Below, piece by piece: positions 14,181-17,705 of a stretch of 34,489 nt of DNA. The translations under genes and the position numbers were made by a program. How positions within the stretch are numbered: position 1 is the stretch's first letter; the number at the start of each line of letters is the position of its first letter. This DNA is from a virus. Lineage: Duplodnaviria; Heunggongvirae; Uroviricota; Caudoviricetes. The DNA lies in the IMG/VR virus record IMGVR_UViG_2541047695_000003; one strand, 5' to 3'. The notes below the pieces were generated by a model, which saw only the letters and a program-made list of their open reading frames with translations, did no database searches and was not told the DNA's origin.

Positions 14181-17100
14181 ATGCAGTCGATCCAATTTAA
14201 ACGAACAAATGTTTCTGGCAAAAAACCAACGCCGGAACAATTACAGGTCGGTGAGGTAGCAATCAACCTTAAAGACCATGTTATTTTTACCAAAGACCGA
14301 GATCATGAAGTAGTTCAAATCTCTGTTTCTCCTGAAACTCACGCGGCACTAGAATCTAAAGTTGATGCTAATAAAAAAGAACTGGATAGCACAATTGCAG
14401 TAAATGACCGCAATATTCACGCTAAAGTAGATGAAATTAAACAAACTACTGATGCAACCATCGCAGCAAATCACGCAGAAATTAACAATAAAGTTGATGT
14501 AATTAAACGCGAAACCGACGCGACAATCGAGGCCAATAAAAATAAAGCTGCTTCCGATCTTGCTGGTGTTAAAGCTGAATTGTCGGATACCATCAACGCT
14601 AATAAAAATGCGGCTGCTGTAGCAACTCAGGAACTGGACACCCGCATCAATAAAAAAGTTGATGATATTAAATCCCGTACCGATGCAACCATCGCAAGCA
14701 ATGACAAAGCAATCAATGACAAAGTTGATTTGATTAAGGCAGAAACTGACCGCACTATCGCAGCAAATCACGCCTATGCGGAAAATCAGTTAACTGACAC
14801 CTACAATAACCTTACTGGTGTGATTGCAGCCAATAAGCAAGAGGCAGCGGATAACGTCGCAGCATTAACCCGTGATGTTGAAGCCAAAAATACAGCAATT
14901 CATAGCAAAGTTGACAATAACAAGTCTTACACTGATTCTGAATTGGCACGTTTAGAAAGCCGTATTGATGCAGCCGATGGATCTGCTGATGGCAAGTACA
15001 TCAAAAAACACGTAAACACTTATACTGATGGTTATTTGCTGTCTAAGACCGCAAACTATTTTGATGATCCAAATGCGCGTAATCTTGATTACTTTGGTGC
15101 ATTCCGCATGAATGACCTGGCGGGTCATATTGCAATGATCTTGCATGTTCCGCATCCATCTGGTGTTAATCATGCTCGTGGCTTCGAGTTCACTTATGGG
15201 TCTAATCCACATGCTACTGTAAGAACATACGGCTATGATGAATTGGGACATTTGGCATATTCTCACCGCATGTATCATGAAGGTGATAAACCTACTCCGG
15301 CTGAAATTGGCGCATATTCGAAAGCAGAAATTGACCGACTGTTCCAGAAGACGCTTAATTTTGGTATCGAGGGTGGTTGGTTTAAACTAGGCACTTTGAC
15401 AATGCCACAACAACACGGTCGCACGGCTAAGATCCGTTTGGTTGGTGGTAACGGTTATAACGTAGGACATAATGGACAAGCCAATATTATCGAATTGGTG
15501 ATTCGATGCGGCAACAATAGCCCGAAAGGTGTTGTATTCAATGCGTATTATACTATTTGGCATCATGAACAACATTTTTGCGCTATTCCAACCGATGGCG
15601 ACAATTACGATCTTTACGCTTACTACGGTGCACATACAGGATTTGTTTTAGCAGAATATCAAGTTTCTTCCGGTGGTGTTTCTTTAAACCTGTTGGATAC
15701 TCCTGAATATCTGGGTGGTGAAAAACCTGTTGCAGATGAAATTTTTGATGCTCTTAACATTTCATCGTTCAATAACTTTAGCAACCGTGGGACGTTAAAT
15801 TTTGCTGGCAATCATCAAGGCCAATATGATATTGAGCATTTAAACGAACAACCGACAAATGCTAAAAAGATGTTGCGTCGCTTCCGTAGTTGTGCACCAG
15901 CTACAATCTGGCATGAGACAGTTGATGATAACGCATATCGTCTTGCTACTGGATACGAAGATACAAATCAGGAATTATTGCTGTCAGCAACATCCGGGTT
16001 ACATGTCAAGAAATTAACATTGGATGGCGGTGTTACTGGAAATTCTGGTATTGATATTCGTCGAGGACCAAACGAATCAAGCCATTTTAATTTCATGGAT
16101 TATCGCACTGGACAAGATGTTCGTAATGGCTGGTTTGGCTTCGGTGATGGTCAGACCAAAGATTTTATTTGGTGGAACGATAACGGTCAAAACTCTATAA
16201 ACCTGATTGAAGATGGTGAATTGCATATTACTGGCGGTAAAGGCCAGAAAATTGTAATGAATAGCGAAGTTGCATTATCTGAAAATGCTCGTTTGGCTGT
16301 CAAAGGTGGTAACTATGGTTTAATCCTTCGTAATGATGGTTCTAGCTTCCATATTCTTACTACCGATTTAAAAGATTCCTTTGGGACGTGGAACACTCGT
16401 AGACCATTTAGTTATGATTTCGCCGAAGGTGGATTAGATCTAGGTGGCACAGCTACCGCACGCTGTTTACATCTGGGAATTGATGGTAGCACCCGCATCG
16501 AAGATAATATGGTGTTTAGATCAGGGTCTCGTCAGTCAATGGACTATATTGAATTAATCCATTGGGGTAACAGTAATACCGCTCGTAACAACGTTTTGAG
16601 TATGAAAGACTCGAAAGGATTCCTTGCTGAATTTGAACGCGTGGGGGGTACTAACGGCGTTAAAACCAGATTCTTTGGCGAAACATTCACTGACGGTACA
16701 TTATACCTAAATCAGATGAATAATAGCTCTGAACGATTCTCTATCAATAACTGGGGAAATTCAGAAGTTGGTCGCGCGGCAGTGATGGAAGTCGGTGATT
16801 CCAAAGGTTATCACTTCTATACTGAACGTAGGACAGATAACAGTTTGATGTTTGATGTTGCTGGCGCTTTTACTGTGCATGGACCTTCCGGGATTACTAT
16901 CAAAAACTCTGCTGGTGCTCGCCACGTCTGGTTTAGAGATGATAGCGATACGGAAAAGGCTGTTATCTGGGCTACAGATGAGGGTATTTTACATATTCGC
17001 AATAACCACGGTGGACAATTTACACATCACTTCCAGGGCGCGATGATTAAACTGGAAGGGCGTGTTCCTTATGCCGCAGATCAAGGACTTATCCGTGGTG

Positions 17101-17705
17101 AGGTTTCTGGTGGTGCATATGTTGCATGGAGAGACCGACCTGCTGGTTTGTTGGTTGACTGTCAACAAAGCGTTGATAGTGCTCATGCTATTTGGAAAGC
17201 GGTTGATTGGGGGCGTAACTACATCGCTGCTATGGACGTTCATTGTCCCGGTGATAGTAATAATACTGCGGCAGCGGTTCTTCATGTTCAGGGTGCTGAT
17301 TATCAATTCCATGCAAGTGGAGAATTTCATGCCACTGGTAACGGAAACTTTAACGATGTTTATATTCGTTCCGATCGTCGTCTGAAAATTAATGTTGAAG
17401 ATTACGAAGAAAATGCGGTGGATAAGGTAAATAAACTCAAAGTTAAAACCTACGATAAAGTTAAATCTCTTAATGACCGAGAAGTTATAGGTCATGAGAT
17501 TGGTATTATCGCACAGGATTTACAAGAGGTATTACCGGAAGCTGTTAAAACCGCAAAAATTGGTGGTTTTGATAACCCAGAAGAAATTTTAACAATTTCA
17601 AACTCCGCAGTGAACGCGCTTTTAATTAAAGCGGTCCAAGAAATGAGCGAAGAAAATAAACTTCTTCGTGAACGTCTTGCTGCAATTGAAGCTAAATTAG
17701 GGTAA
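14181..17705 (+). CDS. Tail fibre (1174 aa) with N-terminal ~23-aa tandem repeats and C-terminal intramolecular-chaperone (peptidase S74-type) autoproteolytic domain
   Basis: About 7 repeats of K(V/I)D-x-IK-x-x-TDATIAAN in residues ~70-230; C-terminal YIRSDRRLK motif (Ser ~1064, Lys ~1069, nt 17370-17387) matches the Ser-Lys dyad of self-cleaving fibre/tailspike chaperone domains, followed by the LKVKTYD...IGIIAQDLQEVLPEAV segment typical of that domain. Confidence 0.9.
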   Translation: MQSIQFKRTNVSGKKPTPEQLQVGEVAINLKDHVIFTKDRDHEVVQISVSPETHAALESKVDANKKELDSTIAVNDRNIHAKVDEIKQTTDATIAANHAEINNKVDVIKRETDATIEANKNKAASDLAGVKAELSDTINANKNAAAVATQELDTRINKKVDDIKSRTDATIASNDKAINDKVDLIKAETDRTIAANHAYAENQLTDTYNNLTGVIAANKQEAADNVAALTRDVEAKNTAIHSKVDNNKSYTDSELARLESRIDAADGSADGKYIKKHVNTYTDGYLLSKTANYFDDPNARNLDYFGAFRMNDLAGHIAMILHVPHPSGVNHARGFEFTYGSNPHATVRTYGYDELGHLAYSHRMYHEGDKPTPAEIGAYSKAEIDRLFQKTLNFGIEGGWFKLGTLTMPQQHGRTAKIRLVGGNGYNVGHNGQANIIELVIRCGNNSPKGVVFNAYYTIWHHEQHFCAIPTDGDNYDLYAYYGAHTGFVLAEYQVSSGGVSLNLLDTPEYLGGEKPVADEIFDALNISSFNNFSNRGTLNFAGNHQGQYDIEHLNEQPTNAKKMLRRFRSCAPATIWHETVDDNAYRLATGYEDTNQELLLSATSGLHVKKLTLDGGVTGNSGIDIRRGPNESSHFNFMDYRTGQDVRNGWFGFGDGQTKDFIWWNDNGQNSINLIEDGELHITGGKGQKIVMNSEVALSENARLAVKGGNYGLILRNDGSSFHILTTDLKDSFGTWNTRRPFSYDFAEGGLDLGGTATARCLHLGIDGSTRIEDNMVFRSGSRQSMDYIELIHWGNSNTARNNVLSMKDSKGFLAEFERVGGTNGVKTRFFGETFTDGTLYLNQMNNSSERFSINNWGNSEVGRAAVMEVGDSKGYHFYTERRTDNSLMFDVAGAFTVHGPSGITIKNSAGARHVWFRDDSDTEKAVIWATDEGILHIRNNHGGQFTHHFQGAMIKLEGRVPYAADQGLIRGEVSGGAYVAWRDRPAGLLVDCQQSVDSAHAIWKAVDWGRNYIAAMDVHCPGDSNNTAAAVLHVQGADYQFHASGEFHATGNGNFNDVYIRSDRRLKINVEDYEENAVDKVNKLKVKTYDKVKSLNDREVIGHEIGIIAQDLQEVLPEAVKTAKIGGFDNPEEILTISNSAVNALLIKAVQEMSEENKLLRERLAAIEAKLG

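What the first reader, a model, noticed from the sequence alone, without database searches (positions are those of the whole stretch)
14181..17705. Tail fibre with periodic 23-aa N-terminal repeats and a self-cleaving C-terminal chaperone domain
The fibre has ~7 tandem repeats (K-V-D-x-I-K-x-x-T-D-A-T-I-A-A-N) and ends in a domain carrying YIRSDRRLK, the Ser-x4-Lys dyad signature of intramolecular chaperone/peptidase S74 domains that cleave themselves off after trimer folding. Cleavage after about residue 1063 would release a ~110-aa C-terminal fragment. The repeat unit also recurs in the J-like tip protein (KIDQVK, ATSEQASATK), hinting at module exchange between the two fibres.
Basis: partly seen in the sequence, partly recalled or inferred. 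Interest (0 to 1): 0.5.

Follow-up and report, generated by a model that had tools for sequence, protein, structure and literature searches.

The report
Prophage gp37-type fibre with self-cleaving chaperone
This is a tail-fibre gene of an E. coli prophage whose receptor-end three quarters were swapped in from T4-like phages and end in a well-known self-cleaving folding domain; the fibre itself is ordinary, but three tiny unstudied genes next to it may form a new kind of receptor-binding cap.

Summary
The ORF (14181-17705, 1174 aa) is real. Its C-terminus is a bona fide Peptidase_S74 intramolecular chaperone (Pfam E=5e-15). The motif DVYIR^SDRRLK matches the cleavage sites reported for S16 gp37 and predicted for fPS-phage gp37, so cleavage is predicted between R1063 and S1064, releasing 111 aa. 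The N-terminal repeats are real but have a 22-residue period (two hendecads), not 23. There are about 7 units in blocks of 4+2+1. They form one ~217-residue alpha-helix, a coiled-coil stalk. The proposed module exchange with the J-like protein is not supported: the similarity vanishes under register-preserving shuffles.

It is up to 80% identical to Krischvirus gp37, with one segment 99.4% nt identical to phage KFS-EC, and it sits in a siphovirus-like E. coli prophage. The stalk is a separate protein in a Proteus relative. The upstream tail-tube paralogue ends in a gp36-like C-terminus and probably anchors the fibre. Three conserved ~100-aa paralogues with a C1q/TNF-like fold occupy the gp38 adhesin slot. 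They may form a trimeric cap on the tip exposed by cleavage; this is inferred, not shown.

The fibre is a known kind. The surrounding module is a new variant.

The parts
13274..14107 (+). 277-aa putative fibre adaptor. It has an N-terminal tail-tube-like domain (aa 11-154). Its last 28 aa (nt 14021-14104, KVYSTEEKPTPAEIEAVSIHDRIDFGEY) resemble the C-terminus of gp36.
   Evidence: phrog_158 major tail protein, E=2e-10. The last 28 aa align end-to-end with the last 28 aa of Krischvirus G37-3 gp36 at 46% identity. The C-terminal motif is conserved down to 40% identity in Enterobacterales homologues. The gene is always immediately upstream of the fibre or stalk gene.
14181..17705 (+). Tail-fibre ORF of 1174 aa, a full-length homologue of the T-even gp37 long-tail-fibre distal subunit with an inserted stalk.
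14181..14330 (+). N-terminal attachment domain (aa 1-50, IQFKRT...AINLKD...FTKD), homologous to the gp37 N-terminus.
   Evidence: 41-43% identity to aa 4-54 of phiS and KFS-EC gp37 (36% over aa 1-71 for G37-3), E about 1e-10. Nearly invariant among prophage relatives. AF2 predicts a small beta domain, strands 26-46.
14331..15020 (+). Alpha-helical hendecad coiled-coil stalk (aa 51-280). It contains the 22-aa KVDxIKxxTDATIAAN units starting at aa 60, 82, 104, 126, 159, 181 and 243 (nt 14358, 14424, 14490, 14556, 14655, 14721, 14907).
   Evidence: Lag-22 autocorrelation z=9.0. Hydrophobic period 3.66, reached by 0 of 2000 shuffles, with no signal at 3.5; 0 Pro and 3 Gly. AF2 models a single helix at aa 51-267 with pLDDT 96-98. 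The stalk is a separate 198-aa protein in Proteus.
15033..17369 (+). gp37-like beta-structured shaft and tip (aa 285-1063), including a Gp34_trimer-like domain at aa 644-745 (nt 16110-16415).
   Evidence: 80% aa identity to phiS gp37, 77% to G37-3 and 64% to KFS-EC. Nucleotide homology begins at 15044. Pfam PF21446, E=3e-15. PDB gp34 hits.
17355..17387 (+). Predicted autocleavage motif DVYIR^SDRRLK (aa 1059-1069). The scissile bond is R1063-S1064, the nucleophile is S1064 and the base is K1069.
   Evidence: Aligns to SDRRIK of PDB 6f45 chain A. Ser and Lys are invariant in 9 gp37 homologues. Published sites are given in PMC7917993 and PMC4690869.
17370..17705 (+). Intramolecular chaperone domain (Peptidase_S74), aa 1064-1174 (111 aa) plus the stop codon.
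   Evidence: Pfam PF13884, E=5.1e-15, profile positions 1-58 starting exactly at S1064. PDB 6f45_A E=4.6e-6 and 8jov E=0.007. 99.4% nt identity to Krischvirus KFS-EC over 17335-18011.
17744..18040 (+). Trio member 1 (98 aa), a small C1q/TNF-fold protein in the gp38 slot.
18043..18348 (+). Trio member 2 (101 aa), a paralogue of member 1.
   Evidence: Alignments A1 and A2, with invariant W4, F21, P24, G26 and G33. The positional orthologue in Salmonella is 52% identical.
18348..18650 (+). Trio member 3 (100 aa), a paralogue.
   Evidence: A remnant of it is fused to a Dc5 N-terminus in prophage TO6, where a gp38-like gene replaces the trio.
18705..19175 (+). Tail tube protein (156 aa). It marks the downstream boundary of the fibre cassette and is a paralogue of the adaptor's N-terminal domain.
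   Evidence: phrog_158 E=3e-20; Pfam Phage_TTP_12 E=6e-5, 23.3 bits, below the 26.1 gathering cut-off; PGAP name 'phage tail tube protein'.

Best explanation
The gene encodes a homotrimeric tail fibre of a siphovirus-like E. coli prophage. The fibre is a mosaic of four parts:
1. An N-terminal beta domain (aa 1-50), homologous to the gp36-binding N-terminus of T-even gp37.
2. A ~32-nm alpha-helical coiled-coil stalk built from 11-residue repeats (aa 51-280).
3. A gp37-type beta-structured shaft and tip (aa 285-1063), acquired by recombination with T4-like Krischvirus phages.
4. A 111-aa Peptidase_S74 intramolecular chaperone (aa 1064-1174).

Mechanism (steps 1-3 inferred from the family, not shown here):
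1. The three C-terminal chaperone domains trimerise first and template folding of the tip.
2. Once the trimer is correctly folded, S1064, activated by K1069, cuts the R1063-S1064 bond in each chain.
3. The chaperone trimer leaves, exposing a flat tip that ends in DVYIR.

Further inferences from comparative genomics:
- The fibre is held on the virion through its N-domain, which docks on the gp36-like C-terminus (…IDFGEY) of the upstream 277-aa tail-tube paralogue.
- The exposed tip is capped by the three small C1q/TNF-fold proteins encoded downstream, which sit where T2/S16-type phages encode the gp38 adhesin.
For: Identity of the fibre:
- PHROG 1699, E=2e-136.
- 80% aa identity over aa 286-1163 to phiS gp37, and aa 1-51 similar to gp37 aa 4-54.

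Chaperone domain:
- Pfam Peptidase_S74, 55.9 bits against a cut-off of 22, starting at S1064.
- Aligns to S16 gp37 in PDB 6f45, with SDRRLK matching SDRRIK.
- Ser and Lys are invariant in 9 homologues.
- The S16 cleavage site and the predicted fPS site DVYIR^SD are published (PMC7917993). The Ser/Lys mechanism and the S1264A block are published for T5 (PMC4690869).

Stalk:
- Period 3.66, reached by 0 of 2000 shuffles.
- AF2 models a single helix at aa 51-267 with pLDDT 96-98.

Attachment:
- The adaptor's C-terminus aligns with the gp36 C-terminus and is conserved to 40% identity.
- Proteus has the chain adaptor(…IDFGEF), then a 198-aa stalk protein (IQFKRT… to …MDFGTF), then a gp37-like fibre (…IQFKRT…).

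Cap:
- The trio lies in the gp38 slot in G37-3, UPWr_E1 and G2248.
- G37-3 has no gp38 anywhere in its genome.
- The trio and gp38 are mutually exclusive in the prophage lineage, with a recombination scar in TO6.
- The fold is C1q/TNF-like.
- Positional orthologues are conserved in Salmonella.
Against: - No experimental data exist for this prophage. Cleavage, trimer state, attachment and cap are all inferred.
- The T5/K1F 'folding sensor' residues (Arg and Asp upstream of the cut) were not identified here.
- The gp36-like match is only 28 residues (E=1e-4 in a four-sequence search), and KPTPAE-type motifs recur inside fibres.
- How a presumably hexameric tail-tube paralogue presents trimeric fibres is unexplained.
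- RB49-type phages with the same DVYIR tip have no adjacent adhesin gene, though a preprint reports gp38 about 55 kb away in Krischvirus phages.
- Some Salmonella trio homologues carry 18-30 extra residues before the conserved Trp.
Confidence: 0.8

Rival explanations
1. The repeat unit was exchanged between this fibre and the J-like tip protein. On this reading the two coiled-coil segments share a recently transferred module.
For: BLASTP gives 27% identity over 146 aa, E=0.003. The Smith-Waterman score exceeds composition-preserving shuffles, z=5.4-6.3. The K-[IV]-D-x-[IV]-K motif occurs in both proteins.
Against: With shuffles that keep the 11- or 22-residue register, z is only 1.3-1.4 and 9-11% of shuffles reach the score. 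The alignment has 20% gaps. blastn finds nothing beyond 12-15 nt chance words. The J segment is itself 3.67-periodic. The same fibre region also hits Pfam Apolipoprotein, a 22-mer helical repeat, at E=1e-4 and below its threshold.
Confidence: 0.05
2. The S74-like domain is not removed. On this reading it stays on the mature fibre as a structural or receptor-binding knob, or the prophage is defective and the fibre is never assembled.
For: No virion data exist. Some related prophages carry IS insertions in or near the fibre gene. [quoted passage not shown]
Against: The Ser and Lys of the dyad are intact and invariant. The cleavage motif has the same DVYIR^SD residues at the cut as the site predicted for fPS gp37, and aligns with the processed S16 gp37 site. 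The ORFs are intact in more than 20 E. coli genomes and in Salmonella and Proteus relatives. The 99.4% nt identity with a plaque-forming phage implies the segment is functional.
Confidence: 0.08
3. The three small downstream proteins are not one heterotrimeric cap. Either each forms its own homotrimer, giving three alternative caps and a mixed population of fibres with broader host range, or they are unrelated to the fibre tip (for example assembly factors or non-structural proteins). In the second case the cleaved gp37 tip binds the receptor itself.
For: Most C1q/TNF-fold domains are homotrimers. The fold evidence rests on one monomer model. RB49 has the same DVYIR tip with no adjacent adhesin gene. 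KFS-EC forms plaques with only a member-1/member-3 fusion ORF.
Against: Three positional orthologue groups and their order are conserved from E. coli to Salmonella: 52-61% identity within groups against 20-35% between them. The trio is mutually exclusive with gp38 in the same slot. Foldseek matches are to tail-fibre C-terminal parts. One conserved N-terminal Trp per member parallels the three W-[IM] motifs in the gp38-like N-terminus.
Confidence: 0.3

Closest known systems
gp37 long-tail-fibre distal subunit of T2/S16-type and Krischvirus T-even phages, with its C-terminal intramolecular chaperone and gp38 adhesin (PDB 6F45; PMC7917993)
   Same: Homologous over essentially its whole length: aa 1-51 and aa 285-1174, up to 80% identity. 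It has the same DVYIR^SD.RLK cleavage motif, a ~111-113-aa chaperone domain, and an adhesin-type gene slot directly downstream.
   Different: It is encoded in a siphovirus-like temperate prophage with no gp34 or gp35 and no full gp36. It carries a ~230-aa coiled-coil stalk inserted after the N-domain. The downstream slot holds three ~100-aa C1q-fold paralogues instead of a ~260-aa gp38.
[quoted passage not shown]
   Same: A siphovirus side fibre of more than 1000 aa whose C-terminal ~130 residues are a trimeric S74 chaperone. That chaperone is removed at Thr1263-Ser1264 by a Ser/Lys pair with the same Ser-x4-Lys spacing.
   Different: There is no detectable sequence similarity outside the S74 domain. 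pb1 did not appear in the PDB sequence searches. The T5 tip binds O-antigen directly and has no separate cap protein.
Endosialidase (K1F endoNF) C-terminal intramolecular chaperone domain, the founding member of Peptidase_S74
   Same: The same Pfam family with the same conserved Ser and Lys. According to the T5 paper the proposed mechanism is shared.
   Different: The passenger domain is a gp37-type fibre rather than a tailspike enzyme. The upstream Arg and Asp sensor residues were not identified here.
Lambda-type side tail fibres (Stf/Tfa) and P2/Mu fibres that share segments with T4 gp37. This rests on established knowledge, not on tests done here.
   Same: A temperate-phage fibre that is a recombinational mosaic with T-even gp37, in a phage that also has a J-type central fibre.
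   Different: It uses an intramolecular chaperone, not a separate Tfa/gp38-type chaperone. The gene lies between the head-tail genes and the tail-tube gene, not downstream of J. Attachment appears to go through a tail-tube paralogue rather than J.
C1q/TNF-superfamily globular heads, including the heterotrimeric C1q A/B/C and lymphotoxin alpha1-beta2. This comparison applies to the trio only.
   Different: Sequence identity is only 6-13%. There is no collagen-like stalk. The trio proteins are about 30 residues smaller than the matched domains. Trimer formation is untested.

Membership tests
Peptidase_S74 / C-terminal intramolecular chaperone domain | Profile match above the curated threshold | tested here: met
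   PF13884, 55.9 bits against a cut-off of 22, E=5.1e-15, aa 1064-1123, profile positions 1-58 of 58.
Peptidase_S74 / C-terminal intramolecular chaperone domain | Catalytic Ser at the domain start and Lys five residues later | tested here: met
   S1064 and K1069. They align with SDRRIK of S16 gp37 in 6f45, are invariant in 9 homologues, and have the same spacing as T5 Ser1264/Lys1269.
Peptidase_S74 / C-terminal intramolecular chaperone domain | Located at the extreme C-terminus of a trimeric fibre or spike protein | tested here: met
   It forms the last 111 of 1174 aa and follows a gp37/gp34-like shaft.
Peptidase_S74 / C-terminal intramolecular chaperone domain | Autoproteolytic release after trimer folding | not testable with these tools
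   Needs expression of wild type versus S1064A, or virion mass spectrometry.
Peptidase_S74 / C-terminal intramolecular chaperone domain | Upstream Arg/Asp 'correct-folding sensor' from a neighbouring chain (T5 Arg1250/Asp1239) | not tested
   No structural model of the trimeric tip was made. No equivalent residues were assigned.
T-even gp37 (long-tail-fibre distal subunit) | Sequence homology over most of the length, including the N-terminal domain | tested here: met
   aa 285-1174 match gp37 aa 71 to the end (77-80% identity). aa 1-51 match gp37 aa 4-54 at 41-43% identity (phiS, KFS-EC). phrog_1699 E=2e-136.
T-even gp37 (long-tail-fibre distal subunit) | Part of a gp34-gp35-gp36-gp37 long fibre on a contractile-tail baseplate | tested here: not met
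   The window has no gp35 or gp36 homologue apart from a 28-aa gp36-like C-terminus on the upstream gene. The tail genes are siphovirus-type: tail tube, tape measure and J-like tip, with no sheath gene annotated or found.
T-even gp37 (long-tail-fibre distal subunit) | gp38 (adhesin or chaperone) encoded downstream | tested here: not met
   There is no significant gp38-like match in the window (best tblastn E=0.11, inside the fibre ORF). The slot holds three ~100-aa paralogues. A sister prophage, TO6, does carry gp38 there.
Hendecad (11-residue) alpha-helical coiled coil | Hydrophobic periodicity of 11/3 = 3.67 rather than 3.5, in a long uninterrupted helix | tested here: met
   The peak is at 3.66, reached by 0 of 2000 shuffles, and nothing is significant at 3.5. 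AF2 models a helix at aa 51-267 with pLDDT 96-98.
Hendecad (11-residue) alpha-helical coiled coil | Parallel trimeric bundle | not testable with these tools
   Only monomer prediction is available. A trimer is inferred from the trimeric gp37 and S74 parts.
C1q/TNF-like trimeric jelly-roll (trio proteins) | Jelly-roll fold similar to gC1q/TNF domains | tested here: met
C1q/TNF-like trimeric jelly-roll (trio proteins) | Assembly into a homo- or heterotrimer | not testable with these tools
   No multimer prediction or experiment was possible.
gp38 adhesin (T2/S16 type) | Sequence or profile similarity to gp38, glycine-rich motifs and hypervariable segments | tested here: not met
   The trio has no Pfam or PHROG hit. 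The trio and gp38-like sequences were not compared directly; tblastn with gp38-like queries finds no significant match anywhere in the window, trio region included, and the trio model's fold matches are C1q/TNF-like. The resemblance is limited to gene position and an N-terminal G-x-W-[IV] motif.

The most novel reading that the evidence does not exclude
After the chaperone domain cleaves itself off, the exposed three-fold DVYIR tip is capped by a heterotrimer of the three small C1q/TNF-fold paralogues. Each would contribute one N-terminal tryptophan 'prong'. This would be a three-chain equivalent of the single-chain gp38 adhesin, which carries three such motifs. The whole fibre-plus-cap cassette moves between virulent T4-like myophages and temperate siphovirus-like prophages. 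In the prophages it is mounted through a tail-tube paralogue that ends in a gp36-type connector.
Probability: 0.35. Interest if true: 0.65.

Novelty: new variant of a known kind. Interest (0 to 1): 0.4.

Why it matters
The self-cleaving chaperone domain and gp37-type fibres are textbook. On those terms the original finding is a correct but ordinary annotation. The context is what makes the locus worth a second look:

- **Recent gene flow.** A temperate E. coli prophage lineage shares near-identical DNA with plaque-forming Krischvirus phages. The shared stretch is 99.4% identical over 677 bp and spans the chaperone domain and the first small gene. Host-range determinants therefore flow between lytic phages used for therapy or biocontrol and resident prophages.
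- **A candidate new receptor-binding cap.** The three-gene set replaces the gp38 adhesin in some T4-like phages and has no annotation in Pfam or PHROGs. If it is the receptor-binding cap, current gp38-based receptor prediction for Straboviridae phages would miss these phages.
- **A simple docking rule.** A C-terminal …DFGxF motif precedes an N-terminal IQFKRT domain at joint after joint. If real, it could be exploited for fibre engineering.

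Tried and rejected
- **DNA-level tandem repeats.** Tandem Repeats Finder on 14000-18000 found no array matching the protein repeats. Slippage-driven variation in repeat number is therefore unlikely.
- **Fibre-J module exchange.** I first judged it weak from BLASTP. It then looked significant against plain shuffles. It was finally rejected with register-preserving shuffles and blastn.
- **A gp38 elsewhere in G37-3.** A preprint reports displaced gp38 genes in Krischvirus phages, so I fetched the whole G37-3 genome. tblastn found no hit at E<=1.
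- **gp38 in the window or in ETEC1717.** None found.
- **Pfam and PHROG scans of the trio.** No hits.
- **Giant proteins matching the trio profile 18 times.** P0057 is an ankyrin-repeat/STAND protein and P0068 gave only DUF and sub-threshold Pfam hits; I treated these long-protein hits as spurious.
- **gp35 and gp36 homologues in the window.** Only the 28-aa C-terminal match was found.
- **Literature.** Searches of Krischvirus gp37/gp38 papers and of 'C1q + tail fiber + heterotrimer' found no description of the trio.
- **Correlation of tip sequence with downstream gene type.** The D[VI]YIR^SD motif is the same with the trio, with gp38 or with neither. Only the last ~20 aa of the chaperone domain co-vary with the downstream gene. 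That is explained by linkage and gives no evidence for docking.
- **Pfam Apolipoprotein hit.** Bit score 22.5 against a cut-off of 90. I treated it as an artefact of the 22-residue helical periodicity.

Full report
**1. Observation**

The ORF at 14181-17705 (+) exists and encodes 1174 aa. YIRSDRRLK lies at aa 1061-1069, giving S1064 and K1069. The strings KIDQVK and ATSEQASATK are in the J-like protein (24108-27854) at aa 862-876.

The N-terminal repeats are real. KVDxxK units start at aa 60, 82, 104, 159, 181 and 243, with a degenerate unit at 126. BLOSUM62 autocorrelation peaks at lag 22 (z=9.0), with further peaks at 44, 33, 55 and 11. The period is therefore 22 residues (two hendecads), not 23. 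The roughly seven units fall in blocks of 4+2+1 rather than one uninterrupted array.

At the DNA level Tandem Repeats Finder sees nothing. The only trace is a 71%-identical duplication, 14424-14537 versus 14655-14768.

**2. The C-terminal domain**

Pfam places Peptidase_S74 at aa 1064-1123 (55.9 bits, cut-off 22, E=5.1e-15), with the profile starting exactly on S1064. The region aligns with S16 gp37 in PDB 6f45, SDRRLK to SDRRIK.

Published work gives the S16 cleavage site as DLNVS^SDRRIKK, releasing 113 residues. It aligns this with DVYIR^SDGRLKI in the fPS phages (PMC7917993). The window reads DVYIR SDRRLKI. In T5 pb1 the scissile bond is Thr1263-Ser1264, Ser1264 is activated by Lys1269, and S1264A blocks processing (PMC4690869).

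The Ser and Lys are invariant in nine gp37 homologues compared here. It is not demonstrated for this protein.

**3. What the protein is**

tblastn against phage genomes shows that aa ~283-1174 are 80% identical to gp37 of Krischvirus phiS, 77% to G37-3 and 64% to KFS-EC. All are T4-like myophages. PHROG 1699, 'long tail fiber protein distal subunit', matches at E=2e-136. A Gp34_trimer domain lies at aa 644-745.

Residues 1-51 are also homologous to gp37, matching aa 4-54 at 41-43% identity in phiS and KFS-EC. The protein is thus a complete gp37 homologue with about 230 residues inserted after the N-terminal domain.

The window itself is an E. coli prophage, not a T4-like phage:
- It matches about 55 of 5426 complete E. 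coli genomes, at 96.9% identity in ETEC1717, where it lies near hicAB and yncJ.
- It has siphovirus-type genes: a fused protease-capsid gene, a tail tube, a tape measure and a lambda-J-like tip protein.

Nucleotide homology with Krischvirus phages starts sharply at 15044. It reaches 99.4% over 17335-18011 with KFS-EC, which indicates very recent exchange.

**4. The repeat region**

Residues 59-268 contain no Pro and 3 Gly. Their hydrophobic periodicity is 3.66 (11/3), reached by 0 of 2000 shuffles, with no signal at 3.5. AF2, run with 12 sequences, predicts a small beta domain (strands 26-46) followed by one continuous helix at aa 51-267 with pLDDT 96-98.

This is a hendecad coiled-coil stalk, about 32 nm long if fully helical. 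Among relatives the N-domain is nearly invariant, while the stalk varies in sequence and length.

In a Proteus prophage the stalk is a separate 198-aa protein. It has the same IQFKRT N-domain, a KIDEIKTATDATILAN-type coiled coil and the C-terminus …MDFGTF. It is followed by a 675-aa gp37-like fibre that starts …ARIQFKRT…. The window's fibre is the fused form of those two proteins.

**5. The J claim**

BLASTP gives 27% identity over 146 aa with 20% gaps, E=0.003. The Smith-Waterman score of 104 beats plain shuffles (z=5.4-6.3). Against shuffles that preserve the 11- or 22-residue register it is unremarkable: z=1.3-1.4, and 9-11% of shuffles reach it.

The J segment (aa ~800-945) is itself 3.67-periodic, and there is no nucleotide similarity. 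The resemblance reflects a shared structural class, not module exchange.

**6. Attachment (inferred)**

The upstream 277-aa ORF (13274-14107) has a tail-tube-like N-terminal domain (phrog_158, E=2e-10), like the true tail-tube gene at 18705-19175. Its last 28 residues align end-to-end with the C-terminus of Krischvirus gp36 at 46% identity. In T-even fibres gp36 is the subunit that joins the gp37 N-terminus (established knowledge).

This C-terminus (…KPTPAE…[IV]D[FL]G[ET][FY]) is conserved in homologues down to 40% identity, from Salmonella, Providencia, Edwardsiella, Proteus and a metagenome. It is retained even across a 200-residue insertion.

In the window, Salmonella, Proteus, TO6 and a metagenomic relative, the gene sits directly upstream of a protein that begins with the IQFKRT-type domain. 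The Proteus locus shows two such joints in series. The rule 'C-terminal DFGxF docks an N-terminal IQFKRT domain' fits every junction seen. The stoichiometry of a tail-tube-like ring against trimeric fibres remains unexplained.

**7. The downstream trio**

ORFs 17744-18040, 18043-18348 and 18348-18650 are paralogues, 25-39% identical, with invariant W4, F21, P24, G26 and G33. They have no Pfam or PHROG match.

Position and distribution:
- The same trio follows gp37 in Krischvirus G37-3, UPWr_E1 and G2248, in the slot where T2-type phages encode gp38, just before the holin gene.
- phiS and prophage TO6 carry a 259-260-aa gp38-like protein there instead.
- TO6 keeps a scar: a 70-aa ORF made of the Dc5 N-terminus fused to two thirds of trio member 3. 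The single small ORF in KFS-EC is a fusion of members 1 and 3.
- The complete G37-3 genome has no gp38-like sequence.
- The trio is present in 24 of 5426 E. coli genomes.
- The family has only 19 clusters among 1.84 billion representative proteins. P0057, one of the long multi-stretch hits, is an ankyrin-repeat protein, so I treat the long-protein hits as spurious.

Structure and conservation:
- AF2 (pLDDT 83) gives a short N-terminal helix that carries the Trp, plus a beta-sandwich.
- Foldseek matches C-terminal parts of phage tail-fibre proteins.
- A Salmonella prophage keeps the order adaptor, S74 fibre, trio, tail tube. Its positional orthologues are 52-61% identical, against 20-35% between paralogues.

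The gp38-like proteins begin with three W-[IM] motifs (PGWI, QRWM, PCWM), while each trio member has one. In S16, gp38 tryptophans plug pockets on the cleaved gp37 tip (PMC7917993). A three-chain cap is therefore plausible. It remains an inference, and homotrimeric alternative caps or a non-tip role are not excluded. No paper I could search describes these genes.

**8. Verdict**

The finding as written is a correct identification of a known mechanism, with two errors: the period is 22, not 23, and there is no evidence for J exchange. The fibre is a mosaic member of the gp37/S74 kind. The surrounding module is a new variant of that kind and deserves experimental follow-up. The module comprises:
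- the tail-tube paralogue with a gp36-like end;
- the fused stalk;
- the trio in the gp38 slot;
- very recent exchange with lytic Krischvirus phages.

Noticed in passing
window 17744-18650 (three ORFs): Three tandem ~100-aa paralogues with no Pfam or PHROG match occupy the gp38 adhesin slot. The model of member 1 has a C1q/TNF-like fold. The same trio occurs in Krischvirus G37-3, UPWr_E1 and G2248 and in Salmonella prophages. The family has only 19 clusters among 1.84 billion representative proteins.
   Followed up: yes
window 13274-14107 and 18705-19175: Two tail-tube-like genes (both phrog_158) flank the fibre cassette. The upstream one carries a C-terminal extension ending in a gp36-like motif (…KPTPAEIEAVSIHDRIDFGEY), conserved across Enterobacterales prophages. 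How many copies it has and where it sits on the tail are unknown.
   Followed up: partly
window 17335-18011: A 677-bp stretch covering the chaperone domain and trio member 1 is 99.4% identical to the virulent Krischvirus phage KFS-EC. The flanking fibre sequence is only 77-84% identical to T4-like phages. This is a very recent recombination patch.
   Followed up: partly
L004 8405-8617 (E. coli TO6 prophage); L003 5855-6178 (phage KFS-EC): Two recombination scars. The TO6 70-aa ORF is the first 9 aa of T-even Dc5 fused to the C-terminal two thirds of trio member 3, downstream of an imported gp38-like gene. The KFS-EC 107-aa ORF is trio member 1 (aa 1-93) fused into the middle of member 3.
   Followed up: partly
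L015 7882-8478 (Proteus mirabilis prophage): A 198-aa protein consists only of the IQFKRT N-domain, a coiled coil with the same KIDEIKTATDATILAN repeat, and a gp36-like C-terminus (MDFGTF). It lies between the adaptor and a separate 675-aa gp37-like fibre and looks like a free-standing extension piece.
   Followed up: partly
window 24108-27854, aa ~800-945: The J-like tip protein contains its own hendecad (3.67-periodic) coiled-coil segment, followed by Phage_Tail_Tip and lambda-J C-terminal receptor-binding domains (Ig_GpJ_C, E=1e-34). The phage therefore probably has two independent receptor-binding devices.
   Followed up: partly
window 10372-12372: A single 666-aa ORF combines a prohead protease (Peptidase_S78, aa 40-162) with an HK97-type major capsid domain (Phage_capsid, aa 407-662). 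This is a protease-capsid fusion.
   Followed up: no
window 31344-33038 (-): A 564-aa ORF corresponds by position to the gene annotated 'recombinase family protein' at the prophage edge in ETEC1717, probably the integrase (type not examined). The related prophage lies next to hicAB and yncJ in ETEC1717. Some relatives have IS elements or a GIY-YIG nuclease gene inserted in or near the fibre region.
   Followed up: no
last ~20 aa of gp37 homologues (window 17640-17702): The extreme C-terminus of the chaperone domain co-varies with the downstream gene type. It reads EENKLLRERLAAIEAKLG with the trio, including the highly divergent UPWr_E1 and G2248, and EEIKELKTPFFTKIARKISKYFKF with gp38. This is probably linkage at a recombination block, but a functional link was not excluded.
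   Followed up: partly
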